Source: Callorhinchus milii
Lineage: Eukaryota
Direction: 5' to 3'
Assembly (NCBI RefSeq): GCF_018977255.1
Contig: NW_024704742.1
Location: 32,800,001-32,864,000 of the forward strand
DNA length: 64,000 nt
Part shown: positions 35,890-60,663 of the stretch, piece after piece
Layout of the letters: the number at the start of each line of letters is the position of its first letter
Numbering within the stretch: position 1 is the stretch's first letter
Translations under genes and position numbers: made by a program
The notes under the pieces: generated by a model
Databases searched by the model: none
The model's input: only the letters and a program-made list of their open reading frames with translations
Told to the model about the DNA's origin: nothing

Positions 35890-35999
35890 ATGCCGGAGTT
35901 GAAGACTAAGGAGAAGTATGTCCTGCTGGGCGATGACTCTGACGGTGAGAACGAGGAGTATAACAAGATGAAACTGTCCTCAGTGAATGCTCAGCATGG
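35890..35999 (+). CDS. EFCAB14-like exon 1
   Basis: [37 protein letters not shown]; donor GG/gtaagc, phase 2. Confidence 0.82.
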
Positions 36000-38900
36000 G
36001 TAAGCAGTAAATCGTCATTCACCCGCAGGTTTTAGGATTGCCATTGATCGCCTCTGTTACTACCTGTGATTACTGCCTGCTAATTGTAAAATTACTTTTT
36101 TCCTCTTCCCCTCCAAAAAATCTGATCCGGTCAAAGCCAACCAGGTAACCCCTTTCTACGATCCCACGTTCCACCGCTAAAGCTATGTTAGTCAAATTAA
36201 AATCTGGGGCATTAATAGACAAGAAAAACAATGTTATCAGACAGGCTGATATGTCCCCATTTCGATGCAGTATTGTGTTTTGCTTTAGCCAGAATCATTT
36301 TTAAAACTGTTGAACATAAAATTATGGTGGAAAAGCTATCAATAGCGTTTAAAATCACGAGCTAACAAACCTGTGAAATTGAGAACAGCCTCAAAACACT
36401 GGGTATACATTTAGGATTTACATATTTATTTTCTGTTCTGGTAAAAATGTCCAGCGCCTAGCTGTTAAAGGAGCTGAATTTTTCGTTTAAAAAAAGCTAG
36501 AATGAGTAAATCCAGCCAGTTGAGTTTCCCTCCAGCTAATCTTCATATCAGATACAGGAGAGTCTTCACAGTGGATGGTAACATAATGACCCTGTGATCA
36601 CCAACCATAATGATACAAACGCTCTGGGACACTACCCGGGTGAAGAGCGTTATATAAATGCAAATTGTTGTTGTTGATCAGAGTGTATGGATGGTGGTTA
36701 GGTCCTCAAAGAGCACTGTCCTTCATGAAGCAAGGTGCATTATACTCTGTGTGAAAGTCTCCTCTTTGTGAACTGGACCTAATTTGTACAAGTGCATCAT
36801 GAAGAATTATCAATCCAATAGTGCTACTGATCCTTCTAACTTATACCGACCGAAAGGATCACTGCTGTGCGAAATAGAAAAACTGTGCTGTGTGCTATAA
36901 TTCTATGATTCTATGATTTGATTGGCACCTGATGGAGGGCTCTGGATGGATGGTGCCTCCCCTTGCCGACAAAAACACAGTCCCTACACTCTTCATCCTC
37001 TGAAGCAGTTTTGCTCTGGGATGCTACTATGCGTGAGGGGCACTATATAAATGCAAGTTGTTGTTGTCTATGTGATAAGGCACTATATCAATCAAAGGAT
37101 TATTATTATCTGGAATTACTTAAAATGGGGGGAGGGAAGGTAAATGCAAGGGGTAGACAACACTGCAATGTTGTCTGTGTTACATATTTATACTGTGTAC
37201 AACAGGCTAAACCATGGAACAATAAATACTTTGACCTTTCTAATAAATAAATCACATCAGAATTTCAATGAGTAACATTTATAAATTATTCCAACTACAT
37301 GTTGCTACATGTTCCAGACATTGAGTTTGTAACTTAACATAGCAATAGCACCACTTAAGCTCTTGGCTCAGATTTTGAAGAATAGCGAGTGCTTTAGCGT
37401 AGATACCATAAAACAAACAGGGTGAGAGGTATTATCCAAGTCAAAATTTGTTTTAAAGTTATGTACCAATGGTTATGCCATCTGGGTTTTGAACATGATA
37501 GTCACAACATAGAATCATAGGAATTTACAGCACAGAAAGAGGCCATTTTGCCAACAAAATGTACAGTTAATTCACTTTACAGTATATGTGAAGTGCTTTG
37601 AGACATCTTGACGACGTGATAATGTGCTATATCAAATGCAAGGAGCAAGGATTATTACTACTAGTAGTATTCGACTCATTGAATATGCACTGGCTCTCAG
37701 AGCAAGGTGTTCATACTGTATCACTGCTCTGCCTTATCCCCATACCCCTTCAAGCCTCTATTTTCTATAGTAAAACCTGTGAAGCTTTTTGAAAAGTCCT
37801 TCTGATGTGAAAGACGCTATAACAAATGCAAAGAATATTAGTCTGTGCTCAGCTGTGAGCATATCAACAGATCTTGCTCGAAACAAAATTAAATTGGTGT
37901 CAAACCAAACTGCTGTTAAGCATTCCAAGACACTACCCTCTGATGAAGGGTGCTTTATGAATGCAAGCTTTTGATGTTGTTTTCCAATAAAAAAAACTAC
38001 TTCTTTTACAGTAGATCATTTACCAGTACTACACCTCCCAACTAGATACAATTTATTATACAAAGATTAGGTGATAGCATTGTTCTCAGACACATAACCT
38101 ACAACTTGAAAAGAACATAGTGTAGAGGAAGTAACATTATACAGTACTGCTTCAGACCCAGATTCAGACGCAGATGGAATTTCTCCCCCATGTGTTTATA
38201 ACAAATCCTCATGCCTCTGTTTACCGAGCAATAAGTGGGAACCTGTTGTTTGTCAATTGGCGGATTGCATTCCAGGGGTAATAATCCCTCAAAAAAAATT
38301 GGTAATTCAATCCATGATTGTTTGTGGGACATGCTGTGTACAATTGACTGCCACATTTTCACCCAAAATTACACATCAATTCACTTTATAATATATTCTG
38401 TGAAGCACTTTGAGACAGTTCAACAACATGATAAGGCACTATATCAATTGCAAGGATTATTATTATTATTATATTACAACTGATTTTCACCAGGAAGATA
38501 CCACAAACAGTAAAACTAATTGGTAAATGACTAGTCAGACCTGAAGATTTTTGATAGCCATGACATTGGAAGAACCTCAAATAATGGCACAGAATCTTTA
38601 ATTTCCACCATAACAAGCAAGATAGGACCTCAGTTTTACATCTTATCCAAGTCATGTACCTCAGTGTCGAGATCTGATATACCCCTTGAAACTGTAACTG
38701 TCGGTGTACTTATAGTGCTTTCACATTAAAATGTATTTCACTTGTGTCTCTTGCTGGGCGGAAGCTTGTAGCTCACCTCTTTTGTTTTATTTTGTCTTCT
38801 GTTTCTGTTATAGGAAAAGGTACTCAGCAAGCAGATTCAGATGCTTTGCTTGGTGCCAGCCACAATGGATTTGTCACAGTTTCTTCATCTTATTGCTTCT

Positions 38901-41900
38901 CTTGTCCCAAGTGGGTTTATTTTTGTACGTGCTGAATCTGCATGGAGAAATAGCAAAAATAAAAGTGGGACAAACGACAAGACAGCAAAAAGGTAAGAAA
39001 ACATTTCATCATCATTGATACGTTGAACACTAGAACACCCAATTACTTCAATGTATTGAACTAAAGAGACCATGGGATAAATTAGTGGCATTTCATACCT
39101 CGTTCTGTGTGAAAATGAAGTTCACCATTGATGACACACCAGCCAGTCTGGCGAATTGGAGGAACAGACACTGGTACTGTGATTCTTCACAACCAGCTCC
39201 CGTTAAACCTGCAAGCCAAAGTCTTAAAGGGTGGTTTGGTTCTATTTATTTTTGGTCAGCAAGGTATCTGACACATGCAGAAACCCATCACATTGCTTAA
39301 GAGTATCCATACCAAGCTGAGAATCCCATGCATCCCACCTACACATGGAAATCCCAGAGATAGATTGTTGGAATGGAATGGGACACATTCTGCTGAGCTA
39401 ATCTGGAAAGTAATAGGTGCAGATTGGTAAGAGTCAAGGCTTGAGGACCCCAGAGTGTGGGTTGGGGTAACTGCTGGTGTCTAACCACCTAACACTGCAA
39501 CGCTTGCCATTGACTGGTTGACAAGTTTGTCCTGCTAGGACCACCCTACCCGTTAGGCTTTGGCTTGCAGGGTTAACAGGAGCTGAGTGGGATGACTCCC
39601 TGCCCCCAGTGACTGATTTGCCCTTCCAGGTCCTGCCGAAAGTCAGACTTGTTGCGCTGCCATCAGTAATGCCCTGGAATACTGCAGACCTGCCTGGCTA
39701 GGAAACAGACTACCGAGACCACCACAGGGGGCTGGCTCGATTCCGACAGTCCGTTGCCAAGCATGTCACCTTGGAGCTAGTTCTGCTTCAAGGAGTCTCC
39801 GCTTATCTCCACCCCTAACAGGATAATTTGATTGTATTTGGACAAGTAGAAAGAAGCTTGGAATGGCAAGCTGTGCAGTTTTAGTTGGACTCCAGTACTA
39901 TCCCAATGCATACCTCAAACATCCAAGCAAGGAGACAATACAAACTCCATCCCAGACAAATGGAAACCATGACTATATGGAATGCTGAGTAGCTTGATTT
40001 AAAGTCTCTTAAGCACGTTGACGAGTTTGCATGTGTTACCAAAAATAAATGATAATTAGAAATGATACTGAACATGTTTTGATTCACCACTAATTTATCC
40101 TCAACTTTCAAAGCGTAAGCACAACCAATAAGATCAAATCAAGGAATGTTCACATTTATTATATGTCCGAAACTTTCATCTCACGCTTTTAATTTTCTCA
40201 TCATCCAGTGTCAGCATTTTTATCTGGCATTTAAAAAAAATACCTTTTGTGTTTTTGATAATAAACTTTCAGTATGGATAGCAGATGCCTTAACAATGCA
40301 AGTCACTTAGGCAAAGCACAACACAGCCTAGCTGCTTTATAACTCCGCCAACCCCCTGTTATAATAACACTAGCTGTACCTGTAGTAGCTGCACTTGCAA
40401 GCAAAGGATCCAATATGGAATGTAGATTGACACACAGAGCCATTTCATCTTCATCTATACTGCTGTGGGAGGACTCCTGTGGGAGGACTCCATTTGGGAG
40501 GATTTGGCGCCTTAAAAATTAAATTTTGTTGTTAGCTTAGCTTCATCTGTGTTCTTTATTTTGTTCCCGCCACTTGGCTACGAGTATGCTCTGTGGCACA
40601 GGATGCCACAGCGCCACAGTCAGCCGGCACTCCCACCAGGTGTAACTGCAGTGTGTGAATACATACGCAGGTGCTCTGTAACGCATGGTGCCACGGCGTC
40701 ACTTTGACTCGGCGGCCACCAGGTGTAACTGCAGTGAAAAACACAAAATTGAAAATAACTCATGAACGATAGGAGATACCCAAAAACAAATATGCCCATG
40801 TCATTCCCAGATGCAAGGCCTTTCCGATGAGGTATAATTCATATCTCTATGTCAATTGATTATTGAGTACCTTCTTGAAGCACAGACAGATATTGTTGTT
40901 TTATTAATATATGTAGAAGATAGATAGATAACCTTTGCATTTGATATAGTGCCTCATCACATCTTCTAGATGTCTCAAAGCACTTCACAGAATATATTGT
41001 AAAGTCAATTGACTGTATATTTTGTGGGCGAAATGTGACAGCCAATTGCTCACAGCAGTGTCCCACAAACAGTTATGGATTGAGTGACAAAATTATTCTT
41101 TTTTTGAGATTATTACCCCCTGGAAAAGCGATCCACCAATTGACTAACAACCAAGTTCCTACTTACTGCTAGTTAAGCAGAGGCATGTCTAGTAAGGAAA
41201 CTTCACCGCGCCTGTGAATCTAACCCAGGTCCTCTCGCTTGCAAGGCGGTTCTCTAACCACTAAGCTACAGGACTCTATACTGTTGATTCAGTATTTTGC
41301 AGCAGTATATTTCTGCAGCAATAGAATTGCAACCAATGTGAAATCTAATGCTGAAATATTGCTGAATAGTGTTTTAGTTTTAATGATAATGACAGCTGAC
41401 AAAAAGTCTCTTTTTTTTCTCATTTTAAACTATTTCAGCAGTTTAGTAGCATTTAGAGATTATTTGCCACTTGTCAGTAAATATGTCATCCTTGCATGAG
41501 TCATTTAATGATCCATGAATTTTAATCTAGGCTGGCTCACTTCAGAAGCAAGTCTTGTCGTGAGTAGTATGAGCTTTCACACTCATTCCCAGACACACAA
41601 TTCAAAGATAACTACTTTGCCCCTCAATTGAGGAAAGCTTTATTGGAGAACTTGTATTTGACTCAAAATTTGAAAGCGTAATGATTTATTTGAAAAATTC
41701 ATGTGCATTTTTAGAAGAAGATTTACTGAATATTGGAGATAATTTTAGGAAAGAGCTAGCAGCCTCTTTCTTGTATGAAATTGCACTGACATTTTCAAAC
41801 TGGTGGAATATCCTAATAGTTATGCATGTAAGAGGATCTTTTCCCATTCCTTGTGTTGAGGTCCAACAATTTCTGAGCTCCTCGATAATTTAGAGATGTC

Positions 41901-44900: not shown

Positions 44901-47900
44901 TATATTATTATTATTGCTAGCTCAGTTCCTAGGAGACCATACTTTCCTTTCCTTCTCCTCTCCCAAGATGGATAGCTATTAACAGAAGTCGCTAGGAATA
45001 CTCAGCATCTATCAGACAGCATCTATGGAAAAAGGAAAGTAAGTCAGAACTGGGGCATGTTGGGAGGGAGAGGCTGTTAAGGACTAACAGAGAGGTGGGA
45101 GGCAGGACAAAGAAGACAAAGGAGAAAATGGGGTAGAGAACAGGGAATGATGGATTAAAGAGGTATTAATGATGCAAACAAAGGGGGGAAAAAGATATCT
45201 GTACAGATATCTACAGATATCTTTTACAATCCCACCAACTCCCACAGTTACCTGGACTATACCTCCTCCCACCCTACCTCCTGTAAAGACTCCATTCCCT
45301 TTACCCAGTTCCTCCGCCTCTACCGCTCTGATGAAACCACCTTTCACACCAGAACAACTGAAATGTATTCCTTTTACCTTGACCGAGGATTCCCATCCAT
45401 TGTAGTAGGCAGGGCCCTTGACTGTGTCCGCTCTATTTCCCTTAACTCTGCTCACCCCCTCCCCCTCTTCTGAGTCCTCACCATCCAATCCACCAGCTTC
45501 AACATCCAACAAATAATTCTTGGCCATTTCCGGCATCTCCAGCATGATCCAACCAAAAAACATATTTTTCCCTCCCCTCCCCTCTCAGCATTCCAAAGGG
45601 ACAGTTCCCTCTGTGACTCCCTGGTTCATTCCTCCATCACCACCAACAATTGCTCTCCTCCACCTGGCACCTTCCCATGCCAAGTGCAGGAGATGCAATA
45701 CCTGCCCTTTCACCTCCTCCCATACCACTGTCCAGGGCCCCAAACACAGTTTTCAAGTTAAACAGTGATTTTTGTGCACTATCACCAATGTAATAATAAT
45801 AATAATAATCTTTGCATTTGATATAGCGCTTTTTCACGTCGGGAGGATGTCCCAAAGCACTTCACAGAACACACTGTAAAGTGAATTGACTGTATATTTG
45901 TGGGCGAATGCTGCAGCCAATTGCGCACAGCAATGTCCCACAAACAGTCGTAGATTGAAAATGACCAATTTATTATTGTTTTTTTTGGTTTTTTTGGAGG
46001 GATTATTATTAGGCGTGTGGAGTAAGAAAACTTGCCCAAGGTTTCGCCCTCTGCCTGGAATTGAACTCAGGTCTCTTGCTTGCAAAGCGAGTGCTCTAAC
46101 CACTGAGCTACAGGACTCCACTTTACTCCATTCACTGCTCACGATGTGGTCTCCTCTACACTGGGGAGACGAAACGTAGATTGGGTGACTGATTTGCTGA
46201 ACACCTCTGTTCTGTCCACAAGCACAACCCTGAACTTTCGGTTTCTTGCCACTTCAACTCTCCCTCCCACTCGCACGCTGACCTCTCCATCCATGGTCTC
46301 CTGCGTTGTTCCAATGAGCACAGCGCAAGCTCGACGAACAGCACCTCATCTACCTGCTAGGACCTTACAGCCCTCTGGCCTCAATATTGATTTCAATAAT
46401 TTCAGGCCATAACACCTCACCTTCCCCCACCCCCTCTTCTGTGACCATTACCACATCATCTGGGTCCCAGAGACACTTTTCTCTCTCTGGTCTACCTGTT
46501 TTGTTGCTTCCCCCACCACCCCCACCCACCTTTGTTCTGCATTATTAATACCTCTATTCCCCTGTTTTATCAATCTGTTTTGACTTGCATCATTAGCACC
46601 TCTTTAACCCATCACCCCCTGTCCTCTACCCCATTTTCTCATTTGTCTTCCTTGTCCTGCCTCCTTCCTCTCTGTTAGCCCTTAAAAGCCTCTCCCTCCC
46701 AATATGCCCCAACCTGACGAAGGATCGTGGACCTGAAACATTGACTCACTTTCCTTTCTTTGTAGAAGCTGCCTGACCTTCTGAGTATTCCCAGCGACTT
46801 CTGTTTTTGTTTCAGATTTCCAGCATCTGCAGCATTTTGGTTATTAGTTGATCATTTATGCAGGATCTTGAATACTGTCTGAAATAGCCTGTTTCTGTTT
46901 CAGAAAATATCATACTTAATGTTTCCTTTTAAAAGTCTTCTTTTGACACGTTTATTGCTTGTTTGTTTTTTATGTTGACATCTCTCAGAACAACTCACTC
47001 AGCAGTCTGTTAAGATGCCTTCTGTCGAGGGGAGCCTTGGAGAAGGAAATGCGGAACTGAAATCCAAAGTGGAGGATTTATATGAGAAGGTAAACCCATA
47101 ACAAGCTATACACAAGCAGCTTAATACTGGAATATGAGGGTGGTTGGGATGGAAGGATGAGATCAAAATGGGCCAATGATTATTTTCCGAAAAGCTCTTG
47201 TGGTATATGAGCACAAATCTGTCTGGGAGATGTTTGTCCTTTGTGGGCACAAATAATTCCATTTATCTGATTGCTGATCAATATTATACTTTAAGCAGGA
47301 GAATTAATTGCTGCCTAAGGAAATTTTGCCTTAAAAATAATGTTCCATTCAAATGTCATGTATAGATTCGTATTTGTACCATGCCATAGAAATGTATCTG
47401 ATACACTAATGGGAAGACAATACAGTCTTATGAATGCAATTTGTTGTTGTTGTATCTTTTGCATTTTAAACGCTACCCATCTGTAGCTTGTATTCTTTTT
47501 TTAATTTTCTTGTTTTTCTTTTTCTTGAAGGTCCTTTGTTAAAAATGACTTTCTTGTAAAATGGTGAAAATAATTTGTGTTTGTAATTCTTCACATTCAC
47601 ATAATTTGTTTTACAGCTTGAGGAGATTACATTTTCCCTTTCCCGAAGCAAAAAGTTGCAAAATGCAGAATCAGATGTGAACCATCCACATAATATAGCG
47701 ATGATAGACAAGGTACAGTATGTGAAGCCTGTAATAATAATAATGATCTTTGCATTTGATATAGCGCTTTTTTGGGACATCTCAAAGTGCTTCACAGAAT
47801 ATACTGTAAGTGAATTGACTGTATATTTTGTGGGTGAAATGTTCAGGTGAAAATGCAACAATAGTGATAACGATCACATTGTCAGATTTTATGTTACTGG

Positions 47901-50900
47901 CAATGTCTCAGTTGATAACTGGCTGAGGGGAAAACACCAACCCCATATGACTGTGAACGATTAGGTCCAAATCTACTTGCTGATGAGCTGTCTGGCAGAG
48001 ACTTTGAAGCGGCTGCCCTATGGATTGCCTCACTCAGTGCTAGTTCATAGAGGACTGGGAATTACATATTCAGTGCAATTTGCTTCACGACATTATGTCA
48101 CAGCGTTGATATTGCTCGTTCACATTATTGTTAGGGATCTATTCTATTTTGGTCAATTTATCTAGTTGGTGGTGGCTATCTATATTGACACTAGCTCTCA
48201 ATGAGCTCCATATGGATCCCCTAAATGAATAATTTAATAATTATTTCTTCATAAATGCTCAGCAATTATTTGACTGTAACCTCCTGATAACCTGAACTTG
48301 GCTTAACTTGTCACTATCATTTAAGTCACCATGCTGTCAATATCCCAGCTACATTTATTTATGTATTCATACATACACTGAGCCCTTCTCCTTGTAGTAT
48401 CAAGTTATCAAGTTTGTGGAGTCCTGTAGCTCAGTGGTTAGAGCACTCGCTTTGCAAGTGAGAGACCTGAGTTCAATTCCAGGCAGAGGGCGAAACCTTG
48501 GGCAAGTTTCCTTACTCCACACGCCTAATAATAATCCCTCCAAAAAACCAAAAACAATAATTAAATTGGTCATTTTCAATCTACGACTGTTTGTGGGACA
48601 TTGCTGTGCGCAATTGGCTGCCGCGTTCGCCCACAAATATACAGTCAATTCACTTTACAGTGTGTTCTGTGAAGCGCTTTGGGACGTCCTCCCGACGTGA
48701 AAAGCGCTATATCAAATGCAAGGATTATTATTATTATTATTATTATCAGGGGGTTTAGTTGATTGACAGGAGATATATGGGACTAGTATTTGAAAACATA
48801 ATTGTCAGATTTAAATCAGCATTTTTTATATAAATTGATGTCCTGAACACTAACAAAATGCAAGTGGTTTATCATTGGTCTCTCAATTGGATTGTTTGCT
48901 GTCTTGGGACATACTCCAAACTGTGTTATTCCAAATAATATACAGATTAGTGCAGTTTATGATTTAACCACAAGTGAGATGATGGTTTACTTTATTGGAT
49001 GATATAGAGAATTATATGGTAATAATAAATAATAATTCGTATTTGACATAGTCACTTTCATATAGAAGGCCATCAAAATCACTTAACAGGATTTACTGTT
49101 GAGCCCAGTGACTGAATTTAGGTAGCTGAATGGCCTTTCAGTAGTGAATGACATTTGAATGGTGTGCAAATGTTATAATTTCACAATAGTTCTGATGAAA
49201 GTTATCTATTGAGTAAAATTTGGGTTATTATTGACACAAATTGTATGCATTTATTATAACAGAAAATTAGCACTCTGGAGGATGACATTATTCATATCAG
49301 AGGAGAGCTGGGCTTACTGCAAGCTGAACGTGAAGAGTTAAAGGACAATGTGGAGAGAATGAATAAAATGACTGATGACCAGGTAACAGACTTGTAGTGT
49401 GTTTTCATTATATGTGGCCCTCAATTTGGCTGCTTTGAAATGAAAGGACAGTGGAATTACTGGAAAAGATTTGTCTTTGCATTGTGTCCTTCTGCCCAAT
49501 ATGGCCTCCTGCACATCAGCTCTGGTGAACAGTTATGCCCAAAATGCCAGCCCATCTTTCTCTTTCTGATGCAATTCTGTTTTTATTTGAAATTTTCCAC
49601 GTCTGCAGCATTTTGCTTTTGTTTCATTTAAATTGACTTTAGGGTTAAATTGCTTCTTTTACCAGTGCTTGACATTTGGGCCAATTAATTGTGCATTATG
49701 GTGCTTCAAGCCATTAGCTTTAATAATCTATTCTCTTCATTTCCTTCTGCCGAATTAATTTGAATACAATGCAACTTATATTTCCATTTATTAAATACAA
49801 TTTACATGTATATAGTGCCTTTTACATTAGGAGAATGTCTCAAAGACTTGACACTGCTTTAGGGACATCAGGCCTGAGAGGTGGGAGCCAAAGAGGTGGG
49901 GAGGGAAAAGATGACTAAAAGTGCGGGCTTGAGGTGGACTTTTAATGACGGAAGGAAAAGGTTAGGGGAATGGGACTGGAGTAGATAGAACAGCCACCAG
50001 CATTCTCTGTTGCAAATTTCTACGATCCCGAGGTTAAATATTTTCTCTGCCCCATCATTGCAGGTCGCGCTTTCAGTCACTAAACTCCGAAACTCTGGAA
50101 AACTCCCCCTCAATCCCGCCGCCTTGCCCCCTCTCTCCCCTTTTTCAAGTCCCACCTGAAAACCTTCCTCTTCTTCCGTGTTTATGGCCACCAACACCCA
50201 CACCTCCCCCACCCACCCAGCTCGAAGTCAGGCTCCGTTGCTATTAAGCATTCTGCGCCACTGCGTAGAAGGCTCTATATAAATGCAAGTTGTTGTTTTT
50301 GTTGTGAAGCGTGGATTATTAGCAATAATTGGCATCAAAATTAAAGATAAGCAAACAGTGTGGATAATTGAACATCACATAAAATACAAATTAACTATGA
50401 TGTTAACTTTAAAAAATTGTTTGTCAAGAGTTGACTCTATAGTACCTCACTGTGCCAATCCTTCTCTGTCTCTTTCTCTCCAAATGTTTCTCTCTTTTTC
50501 TCTTTGAGTCGCTATCTTTCTGAGTCTGTCTAAATTTCTATCTCTCAATAACTTTCTCTATGCCCCTCACTCTGTCTATGACTATTCCTTTTTCTATCTC
50601 TGTTTCTTTCTCTGCCTCTAACCCACTTTACACAGCGAAACATCTTCATAATGTGGGGGGAAAGAATGTGCATGATGTTGCTAAACCCACATTTCGTAGC
50701 TGTGGGAGTAGATTCCACATGAATAACCTCACACTTGTGCGAGCAACTGAATGTTTTTGTCAGTATCACAGCTCCACATTTATTTCCGCATCAGAGCCCA
50801 ATGTGGATAAGTAGACATGCGATAGTTAGTGTGCAGGTATAAGGTGTTCTACTGTGTAAGAAGTAGAATTGAGAGAGGAAAATCTGGTTATGTTCAATTG

Positions 50901-53900
50901 AATTGAGTTGCTGATGCCTGGGTGCCATGTTAATTCAGCCTGTATCATCTCTGACATCTAAACAAATAAAATACACCACAACAAGTAAAGGGTAGAATAA
51001 GGCAGCTGTTTTGAATCAAATCAATCCACCACAATGTATTTATACAAGATAACAGCCCCCTATTTAGTCAATAATACGATTTTTAAACTGTATGATAGGT
51101 ACTCCTGTTGATGTTTGACCAAATAAAGATACAGTGTGACCCCATTATAAGGGCTTTCTTTATTGCACAAATTCAATTATAACACAGTTGCACTGTGGAG
51201 CCCATTCATCTGCGTGTGTGTGGAGCTCGATCACTCTGTGCTGACATCCAGATCAGTAAGGTTGACGTCAACATCGCTTCCTGCTTGTATAGTGAAACCC
51301 ACGGACCTCATTGCAAAGATTTATGGATCCAACCAACACGTTGTACTGGACTTTGATACGAAAATTGAAAGAGTTCTCCTTGCTGTTTTATTAAACACAA
51401 TAAATCTATGCTGTCCCTCGTATAGATTTGGTGATTTGTTATATAGAAAAAAATGTGGCACGTGCAGCAAGTCAATGCTAACTAATATAAAATGAAATTA
51501 GTTTTGTTCCATTGCAACCACCTTCTACATTAAAGCTGAAAAAGTGCTTAGAAAGAAGGAGTCATTTATTACTATCTTTGTACAAATCAATGTTATTAAA
51601 AGAAATGCTTGAATTGCCATTAAAGGAAAGTTGCCAGAGACAATAGTTGACAGACAAATGCATGGGTGATTTTTGTGGCTTAGTTTAGTTTAAAAAAGGA
51701 ATAATGTAGCTTTATTTGATTACGTAGCTCTCTGTTATAAAGTGTTTCATTAAAATATATGGGGTTGTTTATCATGCAATTGGGATGTAGACCCAGACAT
51801 TTAATTATGAGCAGTCTTGAGGTGGCAAGACACTCTCTCTCTGTGGTATCTTAATTAAAAATAGTAATCCTTACATTTGATATAGCACCTTTCTTTCATG
51901 GCAAGAGAATGTCTTAAACCGCTTGACAAGATATACTGTAAAGAGCAGAGTATTTTGTAGGTGAATGCAGCAGTCAATTTTTTGCACAGTAGAGTCCCAC
52001 AAACAGCCATGTAGTGAATGATCAATTTTATTTGGAGGATTTTTAGCCAAGACACCAGGAGAAACTTCCTTCTCTTTTCAAATTGTGCCGTTGGATCTTC
52101 AACTTCTACCTAAATAGGCAAACCTGACCTCAGTTTACCACCTTACCCAAAGAATGGCACCTCCAACAAAGAAGTGCACCTCCAGCACTACACTGGAGTG
52201 TCATCCTTGAGTATGGGAATTCAAAGTCCTGATGTGGGGCTTGAACCTTTTGACTCCAAGGCGAGGCTGCCTTCTGAGACATCTTATGTGTGTGCATCAG
52301 ATTTCTATTGATATTAACTTTGATATATACTTGCTAGGCTCAGAGTAATACAACAGTTCTCAGTCTTAATCCTATCACCTGTATAATGGCTTTTTGTAGG
52401 AAGTAGAGTATTTTTTATCCAGAATACTTCTACAATAATATTTTAAAAAATTAGAAAACTTATTTGACCAGCCACTTTGCTGTGTTTCTTTTACAGGAAT
52501 TTTCCAGCCTGTATGAATTCATCCACAAAGTGAATGAGTCTAGTGTCTCCAGCTCCACTCAAGTAAAAGGAAAGATTCATGCATTTGACACCTTGATATC
52601 TGATCTCACCCGCAAACTCAGCACCATGGAAACAAGTTTGCTGACCCTTAGAAGGCTCATAAACACACAGGTTTAGTATCAAGTTTCTGAAGCGTTTATC
52701 CTGATGAAGCTGATAACACTCTTGTATATTCATGGTTTTAAGTCACCTTAACTTTCCAACAATAGGGATGCACATAATCAGATTGGAGCGGAAAGATTAG
52801 AGGATTCAGAGGGCTAAGAGGGTGTAAGCACAGGCAACTCCTTATTAAAGGAGCAGGGGCTACTTGAGACACGAGTTGTGTAAGAGTTATTTCTGGGCAC
52901 TGCAGGAAGACAACAAAAGATCCATTGAGTGATGGAAATGCGCTCAAAGGCATGGAATGAGGTCATGGTGGATTGTAAGCAAGAGGGAAAGGGGCACAAG
53001 TTTCAGTCAGAGAAGATCAAAGGAATGAACAGATTAAGATAGGGAAAAAATACTAATCTTTTGAAACAAATGAACAGACTGAAAGAAAGTGCGGACTTAT
53101 AATCAGGTTTGCACTTACCAGTTGAAGGGGAAATGGATATATGCTCTGGATCTCTTCCAGAACACAGCTCACTGCCAATACTTGACTCAAAATCAGAAAT
53201 CCATTGTGAGTGCAACCTACCATTTGGTATGCCTGAGTTCCTGCTTTAATTACCAAAATATATGAAAGGAAGTCATTCTTTAGTCTTTTTACCAACTATT
53301 TATTACCAGAGTTTAAAAGCTACACCCTGTTACTCAGGGGTGTAAACATTAGCAGTGACTAAACGGTGCTGGAACAGAACATCATTGTTAAAATCTGGGA
53401 TTTGGATACTGTGCATGTGGATGCATATATAGTATATCTGTAGAATGCAGTATATTAATTGCTTTTGAAATTCTACCTTATGCCAATTTATCAGTGAGAA
53501 TCTTGGACAAAATCCAGTCTTCGGATTTTGTCAAAATAGCCATATTGTTATCTAAAGTGCAGAGAAGTACAGGTACCTTAACAGCATGTGAATGTGTACA
53601 TTAAACTGCAGCATTTTACAATTCAAATAAGAGCAATAAGGAATATTATTAAGAATAACAAGAAATATTCCATTCAGCAGCTTTAAATTCTAATATATAT
53701 ATTTGAACATTTTGGATAATTAAGCAAAATTATGATTTTGTATTAAAAATGTCTAAGAAAAATGCGACCATGCTGTTTTATTGATATGAACAATAATAAT
53801 CCTTGCATTGGTTATATGCCTTTCCCATTGGGAGAATAGAGCAAAGCACTTCACAGGATTTTGCTGTAAAATATAGTGACTGTGTGCTTTGTTGGTGAAG

Positions 53901-56900
53901 ATCTTAGCGATGTTATTAGACTCATTAGGGGATTTCCAAGCTGGGGAATGGAATTTTTCAATCTAGCTAACTTTCTGCATCCTGTACAATCAGGTAAACT
54001 TTTACTGTTACTCTATATCCTGTTTGTAATGTGGTGATCAAAACTGAATATAATAATACATAATAATAATAATTCTGGCATTTGATATAGCGCCTGATCA
54101 CGTATTCGAGACGTTCAAAGTGCTTCATCGAATAATATACTGTAAAGTGAACTGACTGTATTTAGTGGGCGAAATATACAGTCAATTCAATAAAACTCCA
54201 GTGATGTAGTCTAACCAGTCCATCAGAAATGCTTCAGCACAACTACTGTATTCGCTACTGTTCTTTTTATCCCAACAATGAATTAGCTTTCCTCATTGCA
54301 TTACTGCATTGTTTAGGTACTTGAAAGTGAAGATTAACATGTAAAAAGTTCTATAATAATAATAATACTTGCATTTGATATAGCGCTTTTCACGTCTTCT
54401 AGACTACAAGTTGTAACTATAAGTTAAGTTGGTATACAAAGTTACCTTCCTTCAGACCCAGCAGTAAATCTTTAACCTCGATATTTTGTCTTCTACCCAA
54501 AGATTTTTAAGTCGCCCTTATAACATGGTTTATAATTAGTTGTTGGTTCAATGCCAATTTTTCTTTAAAATTATTTTTGGATGTTATTTGTATGAATCTT
54601 GCTGTACCTGCTTTTCAGCTATGCAAAGTATTGTACAATTGTCTATTCGTGTCTGATTCAAAGCAGCTACACAGAATGCCACAGCCTGGGGCTATTTTCT
54701 GGTGCCTCGCAATTAATATTATGAAAGCACATGCAATCTAATCTGCTGGAGGCTATGTCTCATGTCTCTATTGTAGAGCTCAAAGATGCAATGCATACTT
54801 CTTTACAACCACAGGCTGTAACACGTGGACTTAGTCAAGCATTTCTGGACGCTATCCCATGTAAAGGGCGCTATATAAATGCAAGCTGTTGTTGTTGTGT
54901 TAAGTTTAAGCTAGCTGCAGTTCATAAGTGTTCAATGTGATAATTGTTATAATTATCATTTTGTGTCTAACCCTAAATGATTGGCTAAGACAGAACATCT
55001 CTCCAGATACTGGAGAATGCTTCTCTCCCAACCCCGCACCCCCCACGCCCCCCCACCACCACCACCACCCTTTCTTTTCTGCTTGATCAATGCTATTTTG
55101 ATTTATTATTAATAATAAATGAAATAATCTTTGCATTTGGTATTGTGCCTTTCATGTCAAGAGGACATCCCAAAGCGCTTCACAAGGTAATATAGTAAAG
55201 TGGAGTGACGATACGTTTTGTGGGCGATTTAAAATGAAGCAACAAGATTTTTTTTCAATTCTGATTGGTAGAACTGGTTTCGATTTTTTTGTTTGTTTAT
55301 TTTTATTATTATTTTTCAACCACATTCTGGTGAAGAAAGATGGAGATTGTCCTCTCCCTGGCCTGAGCACGATTTTCAACAAACTATATAGCCAGGTTTC
55401 TGCCATGATGTAAAATAAAAATGTTCACTTTTTGTTCAGGCCAATGAACTCTACCAGTTTGAAGAATCAGTAAGAAAAGTACAAAATGGCTCCGATGATT
55501 TGAAAACTCTCCAAATCCAACTGGATCAGGTTAGTACTATTTTAATATTGTTTCTACGTGTCAGTCTACAACCCTTATTAAAATGTTATACGTATTGTAA
55601 AGCATACATTCTAGTGGCTATTACCAAACATACATTGTTTTTTGGAAGTATTTCAAGGATACATACTAGGCAATTGGATCAATTCAATACAAAGTCACAG
55701 AGCGTGAGGATTAGTGACCACACAGAAGGCCAGAAATTCCTCCAAGTATGTCTATTGCATTTTAAATTTAGGTTTGCATAAAATCGTGGATGATTCTTAA
55801 GTGCAGCCTTGGTTTGGGAAACCGGATTTCCATCCTAGTGAAAAAGAACCAACTTCCAAATTAAGGCTGAATTTAAGAATTTTACACAATTCGGTTCAAA
55901 CATAAATCATAAATTTTAAGACAAAATAGTCTTACAAGTTGAGACAAGGATAACATTTGAACCATATTTTCTCTGCAGAAACAAATATACAAACATGGGT
56001 TAACAATGTAACTAGGAACGATTGTTCCCGTGCTCAGATAGGATCTGAACTTTCTTCAGGACAACAGGAATAAGGTCTATATGATGCTACATCTTTGTCA
56101 GGCATTCTGAGCATTGATTAAATCTTTCCTACTGCTATTGGATTGACCCAAAACTTAGATATACATATCAGCCACCTTGGGATTAAGTCTTGACCACAAT
56201 ACTGTAAATTAAGCTTCTGCATCAACGTATTTTCAAATATACTGTGTTTATAGGGATCTTTTAACGTCAATTTTTTTCCTTGATTTTCATCAATAAATAC
56301 CTGGATTTTTTGGTAATAGTCGATTGGTAAAGGGTGATTTTATCCCTGACATTACAATTGTGTTTTTTTTTGGCATTTGGGGTTTCTGGATGCATGTACA
56401 TCACGGTGCAGCTGTAAACCACATGTTCGCATGTAATTTTTGAACCCAGTGTGAGTGAGATTTTTTTGTTACCAATTTACACCAAACGTGCCCTTTTTTT
56501 GGAACTGATTTTTTGTCCTCAATATTCTCTCTTTCATTGACATCAATGAAAATGAAAATGGCTTTTTATTTTATGGTTGAAAAACATCTTGAATGGTCCT
56601 TAGGTGTTTAATTTGCTCTCTATTTACTTTAGAGACTGGATAATGTCTACCAGCAAATCTCCCAGCTGAGAGATGAGTTCTATCAGGAAGACAATGCTCT
56701 GAATCGTACAAATCAAACTGACTCAGACATGCCACAATTTCACTTTGAAACTACCACATATTCACCTCCGCAGACTGAGACTACTGATAGTACATCACCA
56801 ATAGGCTATGAGAGGAAACATCAACAAGGTAACAACTTATGGAAGCAGTGATTGATGCACAAAACTGTGTTTAATAGCAAAGGTCCAATCATTACTTTAA

Positions 56901-59900
56901 TATTAACAGCACATGCGACACAGCACTCCAAGGGGAGCGATTCTTGTGCTACACACTAATGTGTTACCAGTGAGAACTAGCACACTGGTACAGGCTCTCA
57001 AACTTGGACTTTTCGGACAGCCTCTATTTCCCTTTACTCCCAAACCACACTGCAATATTGTTAATATGACAATAACCAAGTTATGATGAACTTATGATGA
57101 TAGAGGTCCATTTTAATCTGAGTGTCTTAAGCTTCTTTTCAACAATATTTAAGTTTGGCTACAAAAATATACAGCCACTACACATTACAGTAAATCCCGT
57201 GAAGAGCTTTGAGACATCTTCTTGACATGGAAGACACTATACCAAATGCAATTATTATTATTATTAGTTCACCAGCTCATCATTGCGCAGTAGGAAAGAT
57301 CCAACATAAGGAATAACATATTTTAAGCTTTACATTGATCTGGGTAAACATTTTCAATCTAATTTGTTACTTCAGTTCCAGATGTCCAGATGAGACAAGC
57401 AACTACAGAGAGTTTCACAAGGAAGCCATCTGTCACAAATGTTGTTGTGATTTCCTCGATAAAGAGTCTGAGAGGTGAGTGCTAGATTAATATAATAATA
57501 ATTCTTGCATTTGATAAACGCCTTATCATGTCTTCAAGTCATCTCAAAGCGCTTCACAGAATATACTGTAAATTGACTGTATATTTTGTGGGCAAAATGC
57601 AGCAGCCAATTGCGCACAGCAGTGTCCCAAAGACAGTTGTGGATTGACTGACCATTTTATGGGGGGGATTATTAAAATGTGTAAGTGTTGTCAATTAACC
57701 CTTCAGGTACTGTGGCAGTGCATTTGCAGCATGTCCCAAGCTATAGTAAGTTACTGCTCAGCGGCTTCATTTTCAGTAGAATGACTTGTGAAACAGCACA
57801 GGCAGTTCTTAAAATCCACGACAGGCTGATCAGCATCTGAGAGAGAAGTACAGGTAGTTATTTCAGGTGTTGCCTTTCATTGGAACTGAGAGACTAGATA
57901 GTGTTAGCATTCAGAGGGACTTGGGTGTCCTTGTATACACCAGTCACAAAAAGTTAGTTTGCAAGTACAGCAAGCAATTAGGAAGGCTAATGGTATGTTG
58001 GCATTTGTTAGCAAAGGGTTAGAGTATAAGAGTAGAGAAGTTGCAGCAACTGTGTAGGGCCCTGGGGAGACCTTACCTAGAGTATTGTGTGTAGTTTTGG
58101 TCTCCTTATTTAAGAAAGGATGTACTTGCCTTGGAGGGAGTACAGCATAGATTCACTAGGCTGGTACCGGGGATGAGGGGGATGAGTTATGAGGATAGGT
58201 TGAGCAATTTAGGCCTATATTCTCTAGAATATGGAAGAGTGAGAGGTGATCTTATAGAAACCTATAAGATTATTAAGGGGCATGACAGAATAGATAGTGG
58301 GAGACTTTTTCCCCTGGTTGGAGAAACTATAACCAGGGGTCACAGTCTTAAAATTAGGGGTAAGCCCTTTCGCATTGAATTGAGGAAAAACTTCTTCACT
58401 CAGAGGGTAGTGAATTTATGGAATTCTCTACCCCAAAGGACTGTAGATGCTCAGTCATTGAACATATTCAAGACTGAGATCGATAGGTTTCTTGTGGATA
58501 AAGGGATTAAGGGATATGGGGATAAGGCGGGTAGGTGGAGTTAGAATAGATCAGCCAGGATATTATTGAATGGGGCAAATGGCCTACTCCTGCTCCTAAT
58601 TCTTAAGTTCTTATGTTCTTATCCCCAAGTACCATGTCACTTTCTGGTCAAGGTGGATATTTGAAACCTATTAGTCTTGCAATTCACCAGCTGTGAATTT
58701 CCAGCATATTTTTATATGAAACAATTCAGATTCTGAGCATTTTCAGGTTTTCAGTTGGTTCCCACAGAAACGTGTTACAATTAAAAGTGTTTTACGTCAA
58801 AACAAATGAATTCATTTTACAGTAACAACTGTCACGTGTAGTGTGTGTTGAATATGATGACACATGCTAGGATGTAATTCAGTGGCTATCAGGGCTCTGG
58901 TACCTTGGCCAAATGGCTATTCTTCAAATATGAAACTGTCAAGGTGACAACCTATGGAAGCAGTGATTGATGTACAATACAGTGTTATAATAGCAAAGAT
59001 CCAATAATCTTTACTTGAACAGTTTCCAGCAGAAATTGTTTTCTCCGCCTCCCTAGGCTAGGTTAACCAAAGTCAATAATAGTTCTCTCTACTGGAACCG
59101 ATTGAGATCAACTAACTGTGCATTTTTTGATTTACAATACGTCATTCTCATCATAATGAATGGTATCATCGTGCATGGCTCACTTTTCATATCAGACAGT
59201 GATTTTACCAGTCCATCGGAGGAGCTCACTTGTTTTTAATGTTACTGCTCTTATAAATCGAGATCAATTAATCTGAGAATCTCACAACATGAGAAATACC
59301 TTTGCAATCAATATGTATGGCTCTTGTCTTCTAACAGCACTCCAGTCCTTCTTTTATCAAGCAGATTGGGCTGCTCGTGGCTACTTAACATATGAGGACC
59401 TCATGAATAATCTAGGGGAACGTGTACCGCAAGAAGAAGAAATTAAACCATTTGATGAAAATAATGACGGCAGGTTTTCCTATCTAGAAATAAAACATGC
59501 TTTGGGACTACAAGGTAAAGTTTATTGGCAACGGTGGACAATCTCTTTGGTTGGCCAACAAAATAAATGTTTCTTGATTGAATATTTCCTGATTTATGGC
59601 ATAAATCTATGCTATTTTGTTATTTCTATGATTATTTTGTTGACTGACCAAAAACGGTTTATGGAATAGAGGATGAATACGTACGTATACTTTTTGATTC
59701 TAAATATTTATCATTTTCACACATACAAAGGAAAGGAAACAATCCTAACTACAACAATGAAATCACAAGATGTGCGTGTAAATCAGATAGCTGATGAGGA
59801 CATTTTGAAACTTGGGATGATAGCTGCTGGAAGGTTTTACCTGCAGTCCGGGTTTGTGAACACATGCTCATATATCAAAGGCTTGGAATCCACCTTGATT

Positions 59901-60663
59901 GGTTTACAGAGAGGCCAGCAGCTTTGCTCAAACTCTGCACCTCCAACTGGTGAAAGCATCGCTCAATTGGGTGGAGATGTGTGTCTGAGCTGTAGGCAAG
60001 ATGATTGTAACAATGCTCTCACAGTTCACGCTGAGCCGTGTTGCCAACAGGAAGCTCACAAGGAGATCTTGGTATCTGCCATCCACCTGGTGAGGGCTCA
60101 ACCCTGCACTTGGCAGATGTCAAATGACCAACAAGTGACTATCTTTCTTGGGAGAGGTTGGGAAGGTAAACAGAGTCTTCTTGGAGCTGAGCTCGCTCCA
60201 ACATGCCATGTTTGGCAACAGAATGTCAAAATCGAGTCAACCTCTGCAGTGGTCTCTGTAGTCCGGTTCCTGAGCCAGGCAGGTCTGCAGTACTCCAGGG
60301 CACTGTTGATGACAGCCAAGCTGGCTGGTCAGCAGGACTTGGAGGGACAGACTTTTGCCAACATGTGCCTAATACTTTCCAGAATTAGGTAAGCAGGAGG
60401 CATCCCTCCAGGAGGAGAGTGTGCATTCCTTTCCAAACATGGGGTTTTCCATCAGTGGGTGGCATGCATGCAGTTCTCATTCTAGCTTGCACACTCTTAA
60501 GCATGGTAATGGGTTTTCATATGTCACTCGACTCACCAAACATAATGTGAATACAAATGGGATGAACCATGTAAAGAGATGAAAATTCATGAACTGAGGC
60601 AATAAAGGAATCAGCAATGTGGAATTAAAATCATTCAGCATTATTCTTTATTTTTCAGAATAA
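35890..60663 (+). CDS. EFCAB14-like type II membrane protein (acidic cytosolic N-terminus, one TM helix, coiled coil, C-terminal EF-hand pair), spliced CDS, about 448 aa
   Basis: Exons 35890-35999, 38814-38992, 46989-47089, 47617-47712, 49263-49382, 52497-52670, 55440-55529, 56633-56828, 57376-57474, 59338-59514, 60659-60663 give an open 1347-nt frame with GT-AG junctions and an in-frame upstream TAG at 35854. The C-terminus ESFTRKPS...[21 protein letters not shown]...[21 protein letters not shown] resembles the EFCAB14 C-terminus as I recall it. Confidence 0.88.
38814..38992 (+). CDS. EFCAB14-like exon 2 (TM helix)
   Basis: [50 protein letters not shown]...; strong pyrimidine tract, donor gtaaga. 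Confidence 0.88.
40925..41277 (-). mobile_element. tRNA-Ala-derived SINE (long form, diverged)
   Basis: Head, extra central segment and tail are all recognisable. Confidence 0.85.
44981..46845 (+). mobile_element. Penelope-like retroelement (5'-truncated) with GIY-YIG remnant and inverted 5' pseudo-LTR
   Basis: [23 protein letters not shown], then after the [28 protein letters not shown]. 44981-45180 is an inverted copy of about 46580-46805. Confidence 0.88.
45791..46121 (-). mobile_element. Young SINE interrupting the Penelope-like endonuclease frame
   Basis: Full-length reverse-complement copy. Confidence 0.92.
46989..47089 (+). CDS. EFCAB14-like exon 3
   Basis: [34 protein letters not shown]; ctcag / gtaaac. 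Confidence 0.82.
47617..47712 (+). CDS. EFCAB14-like exon 4
   Basis: [32 protein letters not shown]; ttttacag / gtacag. Confidence 0.8.
48416..48746 (+). mobile_element. tRNA-Ala-derived SINE (short form, young)
   Basis: Near-identical to 20081-20410. Confidence 0.93.
49263..49382 (+). CDS. EFCAB14-like exon 5 (coiled coil)
   Basis: [40 protein letters not shown]; heptad pattern. Confidence 0.86.
51860..52270 (-). mobile_element. Old Deu-domain (SacSINE1/AmnSINE-like) SINE
   Basis: Reverse strand reads B box ggttcaagcccca, then ggaggtgccattctttgggtaagg...gatccaacggcaca...gaaaagagaagg (Deu-like), then the shared tail. Confidence 0.75.
52497..52670 (+). CDS. EFCAB14-like exon 6
   Basis: [16 protein letters not shown]...[25 protein letters not shown]. 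Confidence 0.86.
55440..55529 (+). CDS. EFCAB14-like exon 7
   Basis: [30 protein letters not shown]; tttgttcag / gttagt. Confidence 0.85.
56633..56828 (+). CDS. EFCAB14-like exon 8
   Basis: [30 protein letters not shown], then a Thr/Ser/Pro-rich stretch; donor gtaaca. Confidence 0.85.
57376..57474 (+). CDS. EFCAB14-like exon 9
   Basis: [33 protein letters not shown]; donor gtgagt. A second in-frame acceptor lies 6 nt downstream. Confidence 0.84.
57895..58622 (+). mobile_element. CR1-type LINE 3' end
   Basis: [67 protein letters not shown]; tail ttcttatgttcttat. Confidence 0.95.
59338..59514 (+). CDS. EFCAB14-like exon 10 (EF-hand pair)
   Basis: [22 protein letters not shown]...[21 protein letters not shown]; canonical EF loop [12 protein letters not shown]. 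Confidence 0.92.
59800..60520 (-). mobile_element. Unclassified ancient dispersed repeat
   Basis: Shares blocks with about 9990-10290, 23850-23970, 24400-24960, 39270-39830, 44060-44520 and 63640-63890 (for example ctccagggcactg and gaaacccattaccatgcttaagagt). Strand label is relative to the 39270 copy. Confidence 0.7.
60659..60663 (+). CDS. EFCAB14-like terminal coding bases (E + stop)
   Basis: Strong acceptor ttctttatttttcag followed by AA TAA, completing the phase-1 codon. Confidence 0.6.

What the first reader, a model, noticed from the sequence alone, without database searches (positions are those of the whole stretch)
35890..60663. Divergent EFCAB14-like membrane Ca2+-binding gene at the ADH5 locus, largely invisible in the ORF track
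Seen: 11 exons make a 448-aa open frame. It has a cytosolic YVLL plus acidic cluster (DDSDGENEE), juxtamembrane cysteines (RCFAWC), one TM helix, about 230 aa of largely coiled-coil-like sequence with N-glycosylation sequons (NES, NGS, NRT, NQT), a Thr/Ser/Pro stalk and an EF-hand pair. From recall: the architecture and C-terminus match EFCAB14, but the typical MKKRKELNALIGL start is absent, and human EFCAB14 is on 1p33 rather than beside ADH5 and METAP1. Inference: an uncharacterised ancient paralog without a mammalian counterpart at this locus, perhaps a secretory-pathway luminal Ca2+ sensor.
Basis: partly seen in the sequence, partly recalled or inferred. Interest (0 to 1): 0.75.

Follow-up and report, generated by a model that had tools for sequence, protein, structure and literature searches.

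The report
Unnamed ancient paralog of EFCAB14
This elephant shark gene is a real, expressed, unstudied twin of the calcium-binding membrane protein EFCAB14; it dates from early jawed vertebrates or before, survives in some mammals such as the horse, and carries a strongly conserved signal that probably routes it to internal cell compartments.

Summary
The gene is real. Eleven GT-AG exons give 448 aa, identical to RefSeq XP_007907014.2 of Callorhinchus milii, which NCBI names EFCAB14. RNA-type contigs join exons 3-11 at the modelled lengths. The name is wrong: the species has a canonical EFCAB14 (V9KLU3, 21% identical), 12 species carry both genes, and an AU test rejects placing this gene with canonical EFCAB14 (p=6.5e-9). 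'No mammalian counterpart' does not: horse, echidna and sugar glider have orthologs; their loci were not testable. New here: the best-conserved segment is the tail motif [DE]xYxLL plus an acidic cluster (20 of 20 rows), an overlapping dileucine/tyrosine sorting signal, and the canonical ELNALI is itself a dileucine motif (19 of 19). EF-hand 1 is degenerate in all 12 cartilaginous-fish rows but intact in 13 of 13 bony-vertebrate rows with the domain; EF-hand 2 is intact in this protein. Best model: a type II, probably trimeric, adaptor-sorted endosome/TGN protein showing a Ca2+-loaded EF domain to the lumen. Function is inferred. No earlier scan finding matched.

The parts
35890..35999 (+). Exon 1 coding part (aa 1-36): cytosolic sorting tail
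   Evidence: matches P0002; outside the stretch on which reads were laid
35911..35928 (+). EKYVLL (aa 8-13): overlapping [DE]xxxL[LI] dileucine and YxxPhi motifs
   Evidence: [DE]xYxLL in 20 of 20 paralog rows that have an N-terminus; 0.2% of 20000 shuffles of the tail
35932..35958 (+). Acidic cluster DDSDGENEE (aa 15-23) with an S-x-x-E casein-kinase-2-type site (motif recalled)
   Evidence: D16, S17, D18, E22, E23 identical in at least 90% of 20 rows
38814..38992 (+). Exon 2 (aa 37-96): juxtamembrane cysteines C47, C51, C57 and the single TM helix (aa 59-77, window 38878-38934)
46989..47089 (+). Exon 3: coiled coil
   Evidence: joint to exon 4 in contigs of runs X1, X4, X6
47617..47712 (+). 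Exon 4: coiled coil
   Evidence: joints in X1, X4
49263..49382 (+). Exon 5: coiled coil; skipped in a Carcharodon isoform
52497..52670 (+). Exon 6: coiled coil with sequon N215; its 5' border is shared with canonical EFCAB14
55440..55529 (+). Exon 7: conserved distal coiled coil with sequon N276
56633..56828 (+). Exon 8: end of coiled coil, sequons N314 and N317, start of Ser/Thr/Pro stalk
57376..57474 (+). Exon 9: stalk and lead-in to the EF domain; its 3' border is shared with canonical EFCAB14
   Evidence: its own joints are not among the rows shown, but contig offsets on both sides fit its length exactly
59338..59514 (+). Exon 10: EF-hand pair. EF1 loop (59364-59399) lacks ligands 3 and 5; EF2 loop (59454-59489) is canonical
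60659..60663 (+). Exon 11 coding part: last residue and stop
   Evidence: joint 59514/60659 in X1, X4, X6
60664..61213 (+). 3' UTR carried on the same contig as the coding exons; AATAAA at 60894; further contig pieces reach about 61530
   Evidence: table 8

Best explanation
The gene is the elephant shark member of a second, unnamed EFCAB14 subfamily ('EFCAB14-like') that split from canonical EFCAB14 before sharks and bony fishes parted (shown by tree and co-occurrence; about 0.95). The protein is a type II single-pass membrane protein: short cytosolic N-terminus, signal-anchor helix, glycosylated luminal or extracellular C-terminus (inferred; about 0.85). Its tail motif EKYVLL plus the acidic cluster binds clathrin adaptors and moves it between the cell surface or trans-Golgi network and endosomes or lysosome-related compartments (inferred from motif identity and conservation; about 0.7), probably helped by palmitoylation of the juxtamembrane cysteines (inferred). 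The ectodomain forms a parallel homo-oligomeric coiled coil (modelled; oligomer about 0.8, trimer about 0.55) that holds a cluster of EF-hand domains away from the membrane on flexible stalks. EF-hand 2 binds Ca2+ (inferred from sequence; about 0.75). The most likely job is Ca2+-dependent capture of a luminal or extracellular partner, with release where Ca2+ or pH falls, in the manner of a cycling sorting receptor or adaptor (inferred; about 0.35-0.4). No partner was identified.
For: Paralogy: canonical EFCAB14 in the same species (P0101, 64% to shark EFCAB14, 21% to this protein). 12 species carry both genes, in Carcharodon and Cetorhinus on contigs of different size (274 vs 123 Mb, 250 vs 106 Mb). 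Tree of 44 rows: canonical clade 100/100, paralog clade 94/86, window gene inside the cartilaginous-fish paralogs 100/100. AU test on 24 of the 44 rows: p=6.5e-9. Homology: two exon borders, read from isoform deletions in canonical proteins, fall at this gene's introns 5 and 9. Topology: one hydrophobic helix, net charge +4 before and +2 after it, all 4 sequons after it; across 20 paralog rows the charge is higher before the helix in 20, with 4-8 sequons after and 0-1 before. Canonical EFCAB14 is reported in cerebrospinal fluid (PMC8111065, passage) and brain interstitial fluid (PMC9855636, table passage), which fits a shed ectodomain. Sorting tail: aa 8-25 are 59% identical to 11 bony-vertebrate orthologs, more than the EF domain (40%), TM region (44%) or proximal coiled coil (11-13%); [DE]xYxLL in 20 of 20, ELNALI in 19 of 19 canonical rows. 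Oligomer: three copies of aa 110-316 scored 0.40 against a best control of 0.00 (mark reached by 21 of 30 proteins solved as pairs and 0 of 23 solved as single chains; on eukaryotes 17 of 29 and 0 of 30; runs agree in at least 27% of contacts, partner pLDDT at least 51), as an in-register parallel coil over about 203-310. EF2 has ligands 1, 3, 5 and 12 in 12 of 12 cartilaginous-fish rows and 12 of 13 bony rows.
Against: No localisation, Ca2+ binding or ligand has been measured for either paralog in the papers I found; EFCAB14 is listed as 'Unknown' (PMC8156796, table passage). EF1 is degenerate in this species, and Pfam EF-hand scores stay under the curated cut-offs (26.8 vs 30 bits); Foldseek finds only weak calmodulin-lobe matches (best E 0.039). 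The two invertebrate homologs lack [DE]xxxL[LI] (0 of 2), so the signal is not universal in the family. The complex job was unlike its calibration (three copies, no alignment used), coiled coils may pass from memory, one of three runs scored only 0.24, and a dimer was not run, so the trimer is not chosen over a dimer by that call. The charge difference across the helix is small in this protein (+4 vs +2). The paralog clade is not starred (94/86) and branches are long. The strict RhxxhE trimer motif (recalled) is absent from this protein's coiled coil; only K-variants occur there.
Confidence: 0.5

Rival explanations
1. Luminal Ca2+ sensor that signals across the membrane, like STIM1: loss of Ca2+ from the EF domain changes oligomer state and the tail relays it.
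For: Luminal EF domain on a single-pass protein; self-associating coiled coil; both EF loops intact in 13 of 13 (EF1) and 12 of 13 (EF2) bony-vertebrate rows.
Against: The cytosolic side is about 55 residues, disordered (pLDDT under 50), and its conserved residues are sorting-type motifs. The coiled coil is on the luminal side, unlike STIM (recalled), no SAM domain was found, and a 58-residue disordered, unconserved stalk (8% identity) lies between sensor and coil.
Confidence: 0.15
2. Structural or Ca2+-buffering resident of the Golgi/endosome lumen, like the type II coiled-coil proteins GOLM1, CASC4 and GOLIM4 (recalled), with the EF domain as a permanently loaded folding module; the ectodomain may be shed.
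For: Same overall plan: short tail, TM, long glycosylated coiled coil. Length and sequence of the coil vary greatly (332-452 aa orthologs; 11-13% identity in the proximal coil). EF1 decayed in cartilaginous fishes and in 15 of 16 canonical rows. Canonical EFCAB14 appears in body fluids.
Against: The EF domain keeps conserved non-ligand residues (F393, F394, Y395, A397, G403, Y404, L405, P419, Y437 in at least 90% of 20 rows), more than a buffer would seem to need; one or two sites per chain is poor buffering.
Confidence: 0.25
3. It is simply the elephant shark EFCAB14 ortholog, as its RefSeq name says.
For: [quoted passage not shown]
Against: A canonical EFCAB14 with MKKRKELNALIGL exists in the species; tree and AU test exclude it from the canonical clade.
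Confidence: 0.02
4. Opposite topology or cytosolic EF domain (type I/III orientation), making it a cytosol-facing Ca2+ sensor on an organelle.
For: No cleavable signal peptide; small charge bias in this species (+4 vs +2).
Against: Sequons lie only after the helix and N276, N314 and T316 are conserved in at least 90% of 20 rows; the adaptor motifs and cysteines would be useless in a lumen.
Confidence: 0.08

Closest known systems
EFCAB14 (KIAA0494), canonical; e.g. V9KLU3 of Callorhinchus milii, XP_041063680.1 of Carcharodon
   Same: Order of parts (dileucine motif, acidic cluster, juxtamembrane cysteines, one TM, glycosylated coiled coil, stalk, C-terminal EF pair with 30-residue loop spacing); full-length similarity E 1e-14; two shared intron positions; EF2 intact.
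   Different: About 21% identity; separate clade; tail has EKYVLL with an added YxxPhi directly before the acidic cluster, against ELNALI about 35 residues before it; faster evolution and patchy retention; EF1 intact in bony-vertebrate paralogs but in only 1 of 16 canonical rows; sits beside ADH5 and TRMT10A here (human EFCAB14 on 1p33 is recalled, not tested).
Predicted 'EFCAB14-like' or 'uncharacterized LOC' proteins of other vertebrates (e.g. XP_005998671.1 coelacanth, XP_043917598.1 lungfish, XP_048703710.2 turtle, LOC111770560 horse, XP_038610971.1 echidna)
   Same: These are its orthologs: one clade, 94/86, same tail motif.
   Different: Automatic predictions under inconsistent names; three of them are named plain EFCAB14 (elephant shark, horse A0A3Q2ICJ4, bowfin). 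Cartilaginous-fish members alone have lost EF1 ligands.
Invertebrate EFCAB14-like proteins (Lineus XP_064624302.1, Solemya KAL5022567.1)
   Same: TM, coiled coil, same EF-pair unit.
   Different: Outside both vertebrate clades; no dileucine motif; the Lineus protein repeats the EF-pair unit three times.
Type II trimeric coiled-coil receptors: class A scavenger receptors and ASGPR-type lectins (recalled)
   Same: Short sorting tail, type II TM, coiled-coil neck, terminal domain that may use Ca2+; weak Lectin_N neck matches in two homologs (E 3e-4 and 0.022, below cut-off).
   Different: No collagen, SRCR or C-type lectin domain was found; the terminal domain is an EF pair. A working analogy, not membership.
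Luminal EF-hand proteins STIM1, CREC family, nucleobindin, MCFD2 (recalled)
   Same: EF-hands facing the secretory-pathway lumen.
   Different: STIM is type I with EF-SAM and a cytosolic coil; CREC, nucleobindin and MCFD2 are soluble. None came up among the listed rows of the PDB searches.

Membership tests
Canonical EFCAB14 orthologs | N-terminal MKKRKELNALIGL | tested here: not met
   ELNALI in 19 of 19 canonical rows; this protein has EKYVLL instead
Canonical EFCAB14 orthologs | Falls inside the canonical clade | tested here: not met
   Canonical clade 100/100 without it; AU p=6.5e-9
Canonical EFCAB14 orthologs | Is the only EFCAB14-type gene of its species | tested here: not met
   P0101 = V9KLU3
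Canonical EFCAB14 orthologs | Shared gene neighbourhood | not testable with these tools
   No genome held. Window neighbours are TRMT10A-type and ADH5; the human location is recalled
EFCAB14 family in the wide sense (homologs) | TM + coiled coil + stalk + C-terminal EF pair with significant similarity | tested here: met
EFCAB14 family in the wide sense (homologs) | Shared intron positions | tested here: met
   2 positions (introns 5 and 9) match borders inferred from canonical isoform deletions; the other 8 could not be compared
EFCAB14-like subfamily (this report) | [DE]xYxLL followed by D/E-S-D-x(1-3)-EE; membership of the paralog clade | tested here: met
Ca2+-binding EF-hand | Ligands at loop positions 1, 3, 5, 12 in EF2 | tested here: met
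   [12 protein letters not shown]; helix-loop-helix model pLDDT 93-96
Ca2+-binding EF-hand | Ligands at loop positions 1, 3, 5, 12 in EF1 | tested here: not met
   [12 protein letters not shown]: Ala at 3, Arg at 5
Ca2+-binding EF-hand | Measured Ca2+ binding | not testable with these tools
   needs ITC or similar
STIM-type sensors | EF-SAM luminal domain with cytosolic coiled coil (recalled) | tested here: not met
   No SAM hit; the coil lies on the same side as the EF domain
Class A scavenger receptors / type II C-type lectins | Type II TM with oligomeric coiled-coil neck | tested here: inconclusive
   Three-copy model passes (0.40 vs best control 0.00), dimer not run, topology inferred
Class A scavenger receptors / type II C-type lectins | Collagen, SRCR or CTLD domain | tested here: not met

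The most novel reading that the evidence does not exclude
EFCAB14 and this paralog define an unrecognised class of cycling type II receptors in which a trimeric coiled coil presents EF-hand pairs, in place of lectin or SRCR heads, to bind cargo at the high Ca2+ of the cell surface or trans-Golgi network and drop it in Ca2+-poor endosomes. The invariant ELNALI start of human-type EFCAB14 would be its adaptor-binding signal. The paralog, with two intact EF loops in bony vertebrates and the lamprey fragment, would keep the ancestral Ca2+ switch, and would have been lost repeatedly (none seen in teleosts, birds, rodents or primates among the named hits) while kept in horse.
Probability: 0.25. Interest if true: 0.7.

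Novelty: new member of a known kind. Interest (0 to 1): 0.42.

Why it matters
Human EFCAB14 is an orphan that recurs in plasma and cerebrospinal-fluid proteomics and association studies with no known function (PMC11111566 and PMC8156796, passages). The paralog gives an independent evolutionary test of what matters in the family: a dileucine sorting signal, an acidic cluster, juxtamembrane cysteines, the distal coiled coil and EF-hand 2. That turns 'function unknown' into direct cell-biology experiments. It also corrects gene names (three paralog records are called EFCAB14) and adds a candidate to the list of ancient vertebrate genes kept in some mammals and apparently lost in others. It is not a new kind of system, and the gene model was already in RefSeq.

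Tried and rejected
No whole genome is held, so a genome-wide search and synteny in other species were not possible; the canonical gene was found through protein databases instead. The word-index search with the full protein found only cartilaginous-fish orthologs (16 hits among 5150 candidates); the HMMER search was needed for the rest. The look-up of sequencing runs listed no holder on record as RNA; 9 of 13 runs are guessed RNA; their spliced contigs are the evidence, and they give no tissue or level. Exons 1-2 lay outside the stretch laid, so joints 1-2 and 2-3 rest on length arithmetic (406 nt ahead of exon 3 = 289 coding + 117), on the 448-aa variant record V9KWH7 and on orthologs. A missing exon was considered and rejected for exons 3-11 (constant offsets). 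The 498-aa model A0A4W3I4J7 reads through intron 10; three runs show that intron spliced. The 240-codon ORF in intron 10 has no Pfam hit and matches 7 other places in the window: a repeat. Foldseek and PDB profile searches gave only generic calmodulin lobes and coiled coils. The trimer-motif scan was inconclusive. Two of seven ADH exon queries were out of frame and were not counted. 9 of the 29 new HMMER hits were not named (look-ups exhausted), so the range list is incomplete; absence in teleosts, birds, rodents and primates is 'not seen', not shown. 23 of about 70 paralog-type records went into the 44-row tree (one per species), with 19 of the canonical records. Seven literature searches (EFCAB14; KIAA0494; EFCAB14+lysosom; ADH5/METAP1/synten/TRMT10A; EFCAB14+paralog; EFCAB14+Golgi; the full protein name) showed no paper on the paralog or on EFCAB14 localisation; most were seen as listings only, and supplements (organelle proteomics tables) were not searched and may hold localisation data. 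PMC4028059 (passages) lists genes flanking frog and reptile ADH loci with no mention of an EF-hand gene. PMC4545869 (passages) added nothing. Earlier scan findings: none relevant.


Full report
Observation. I rebuilt the gene from the window by coordinates. Eleven exons between 35890 and 60663 on the + strand, all with GT..AG introns, give an open frame of 448 aa with phases 2,1,0,0,0,0,0,1,1,1. A search with exon 10 alone returned two proteins among 5 candidates, both Callorhinchus milii; one, XP_007907014.2, is identical to my model. The window order is a TRMT10A-type gene, one class III alcohol dehydrogenase, ADH5, then this gene. I saw no METAP1 in the window.

Transcription. No run was on record as RNA, but 9 of 13 listed runs were guessed RNA. 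I laid 4 of them on 42000-61900. GT..AG joints are listed for introns 3, 4, 5, 6, 7 and 10, in two or three runs each. One 2016-nt contig of run X1 carries exons 5, 6, 10, 11 and 550 nt of 3' UTR at a constant offset of 117, and an 839-nt contig of X4 carries exons 3, 5, 6 and 8 at a constant offset; so no exon is missing or extra between 3 and 11. Exons 1 and 2 were outside the stretch; the X1 contig has room for them plus 117 nt of leader. A second database record, V9KWH7, is also 448 aa with three substitutions, one of which (F232L) appears as a base difference in X4 and X3.

What it is. The full protein finds 14 further cartilaginous-fish records at 45-54% identity, named 'EFCAB14-like', 'uncharacterized' or otherwise. 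HMMER against 1.84 billion representatives gave 31 hits. Of the 20 that I could name, the stronger ones are from turtle, lungfish, three frogs, axolotl, caecilian, coelacanth, horse, echidna and sugar glider; weaker ones are canonical EFCAB14 of shark, bichir, frog, koala and whale, two invertebrates, and short bowfin and lamprey records. A search with shark EFCAB14 found the canonical elephant shark protein V9KLU3 (64%), which is only 21% identical to the window protein though similar over 419 columns (E 1e-14). Twelve species have both types. In a 44-row maximum-likelihood tree the canonical proteins form one clade (100/100) and the paralogs another (94/86, 21 rows plus the bowfin fragment), each roughly following vertebrate phylogeny; the window gene sits with the other cartilaginous-fish paralogs (100/100). 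An AU test on 24 of these rows rejects grouping it with canonical EFCAB14 (p=6.5e-9). The 88-aa lamprey record joins the paralog side at 94/65, not starred, which hints that the split predates jawed vertebrates. Exon borders read from isoform deletions in canonical proteins match introns 5 and 9 of this gene. The RefSeq name is therefore a misassignment.

Anatomy. AlphaFold (45 sequences, mean pLDDT 72.5, pTM 0.29) shows a disordered tail, a helix through the membrane into about 230 residues of coiled-coil helices, a disordered stalk at 317-374 and a compact EF pair. Conservation against 11 bony-vertebrate orthologs is highest in tail residues 8-25 (59%), then the cysteine/TM region (44%), EF domain (40%), distal coil (33%), and lowest in the proximal coil (11-13%) and stalk (8%). 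The tail motif is [DE]xYxLL in 20 of 20 paralog rows with an N-terminus; it satisfies at once the acidic dileucine pattern [DE]xxxL[LI] and the tyrosine pattern YxxPhi, both known clathrin-adaptor signals (established knowledge, recalled), and is followed by an acidic cluster. Shuffles of the tail give the combined motif in 0.2% and the dileucine pattern in 3%. The invariant canonical start contains ELNALI, the same dileucine pattern, in 19 of 19 rows; the two invertebrates have none. In the EF pair, loop 2 has ligands 1, 3, 5 and 12 in 12 of 12 cartilaginous-fish rows, 12 of 13 bony paralog rows with the domain and 16 of 16 canonical rows. Loop 1 lacks the position-5 ligand in 12 of 12 cartilaginous-fish rows (position 3 as well in 11), is complete in 13 of 13 bony paralog rows, the lamprey fragment and Lineus, and is complete in only 1 of 16 canonical rows (the echidna record lacks the domain and was not counted). 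The simplest reading is two ancestral sites and independent decay of site 1 in the shark paralogs and in canonical EFCAB14 (inference). Three copies of residues 110-316 were modelled as an in-register parallel coiled coil, score 0.40 against a best control of 0.00 (mark reached by 21 of 30 solved pairs and 0 of 23 single chains; eukaryotes 17 of 29 and 0 of 30; contacts agree at least 27%, pLDDT at least 51). This supports self-association, may reflect memory of other coiled coils, and does not choose trimer over dimer.

How it most likely works. Shown: gene structure, splicing of exons 3-11, paralogy, motif conservation, EF ligand pattern. Modelled: fold and self-association. Inferred: type II topology, adaptor-driven cycling through the trans-Golgi network, surface and endosomes, Ca2+ binding at loop 2, and Ca2+-dependent capture of a luminal partner by the clustered EF heads. 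I put the whole model at 0.5 for a sorted, oligomeric, lumen-facing Ca2+-binding protein and lower (0.35-0.4) for the capture-and-release step. A structural or buffering role like Golgi type II coiled-coil proteins is the main rival (0.25). A STIM-like signalling sensor is less likely (0.15) because the tail has no effector part and a floppy stalk uncouples head and coil.

What is known. Seven literature searches found no paper on the paralog (mostly listings). For canonical EFCAB14 I read passages only: function 'Unknown' (PMC8156796), 'understanding remains limited' (PMC11111566), measured in cerebrospinal fluid (PMC8111065; method not checked) and listed in brain interstitial fluid (PMC9855636). 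No solved relative exists beyond generic EF-hands and coiled coils. Subscription journals and supplements were not searched.

Verdict. A real, expressed, database-predicted but misnamed gene; the founding example of an undescribed EFCAB14 paralog subfamily that reaches from sharks to horse. It is a new member of a known, functionally orphan kind. Its value lies in the testable sorting-signal and Ca2+-site predictions for the whole family. Interest 0.42.

Noticed in passing
window 5244-27500: A TRMT10A-type gene is followed directly by a single class III ADH; five in-frame ADH exon queries find only themselves in the window. In human (recalled) six more ADH genes and C4orf17 lie between TRMT10A and ADH5, so this may be the pre-expansion state of the ADH locus.
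   Followed up: partly
window 1589-3831: A 2.2-kb G-rich tandem array (unit about GGGGAG / 18-mer, 80% GC in 2001-4000), upstream of the first TRMT10A coding exon; likely to form G-quadruplexes (not tested).
   Followed up: no
window 59670-60392: A 240-codon stop-free frame in intron 10 with no Pfam hit; it matches 7 other places in the window at 66-93% and is part of a dispersed repeat.
   Followed up: yes
P0001 (XP_042201301.1, 629-kb contig): A second elephant shark record, 389 aa, identical to the window protein apart from two altered or missing stretches; probably a haplotype duplicate in the assembly, possibly a recent copy.
   Followed up: no
P0031 (Lineus longissimus): The ribbon-worm homolog repeats the EF-pair unit three times with Thr/Pro linkers, which suggests that the unit is a modular, multivalent head.
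   Followed up: no
P0042: An unnamed 79-aa record close to the horse EF exon, without a start methionine and with a changed lead-in; it may be a decayed copy in another mammal.
   Followed up: no
window 57900-58550, 62690-62920, 28100-29800: LINE-type remnants; the 62.7-kb piece has a reverse-transcriptase match (E 1e-5), the others are judged by eye.
   Followed up: partly
window 16773-17331 and 17943-18264: A long CA/CATA microsatellite and a 20-bp GC-rich minisatellite just upstream of ADH5 exon 2.
   Followed up: no
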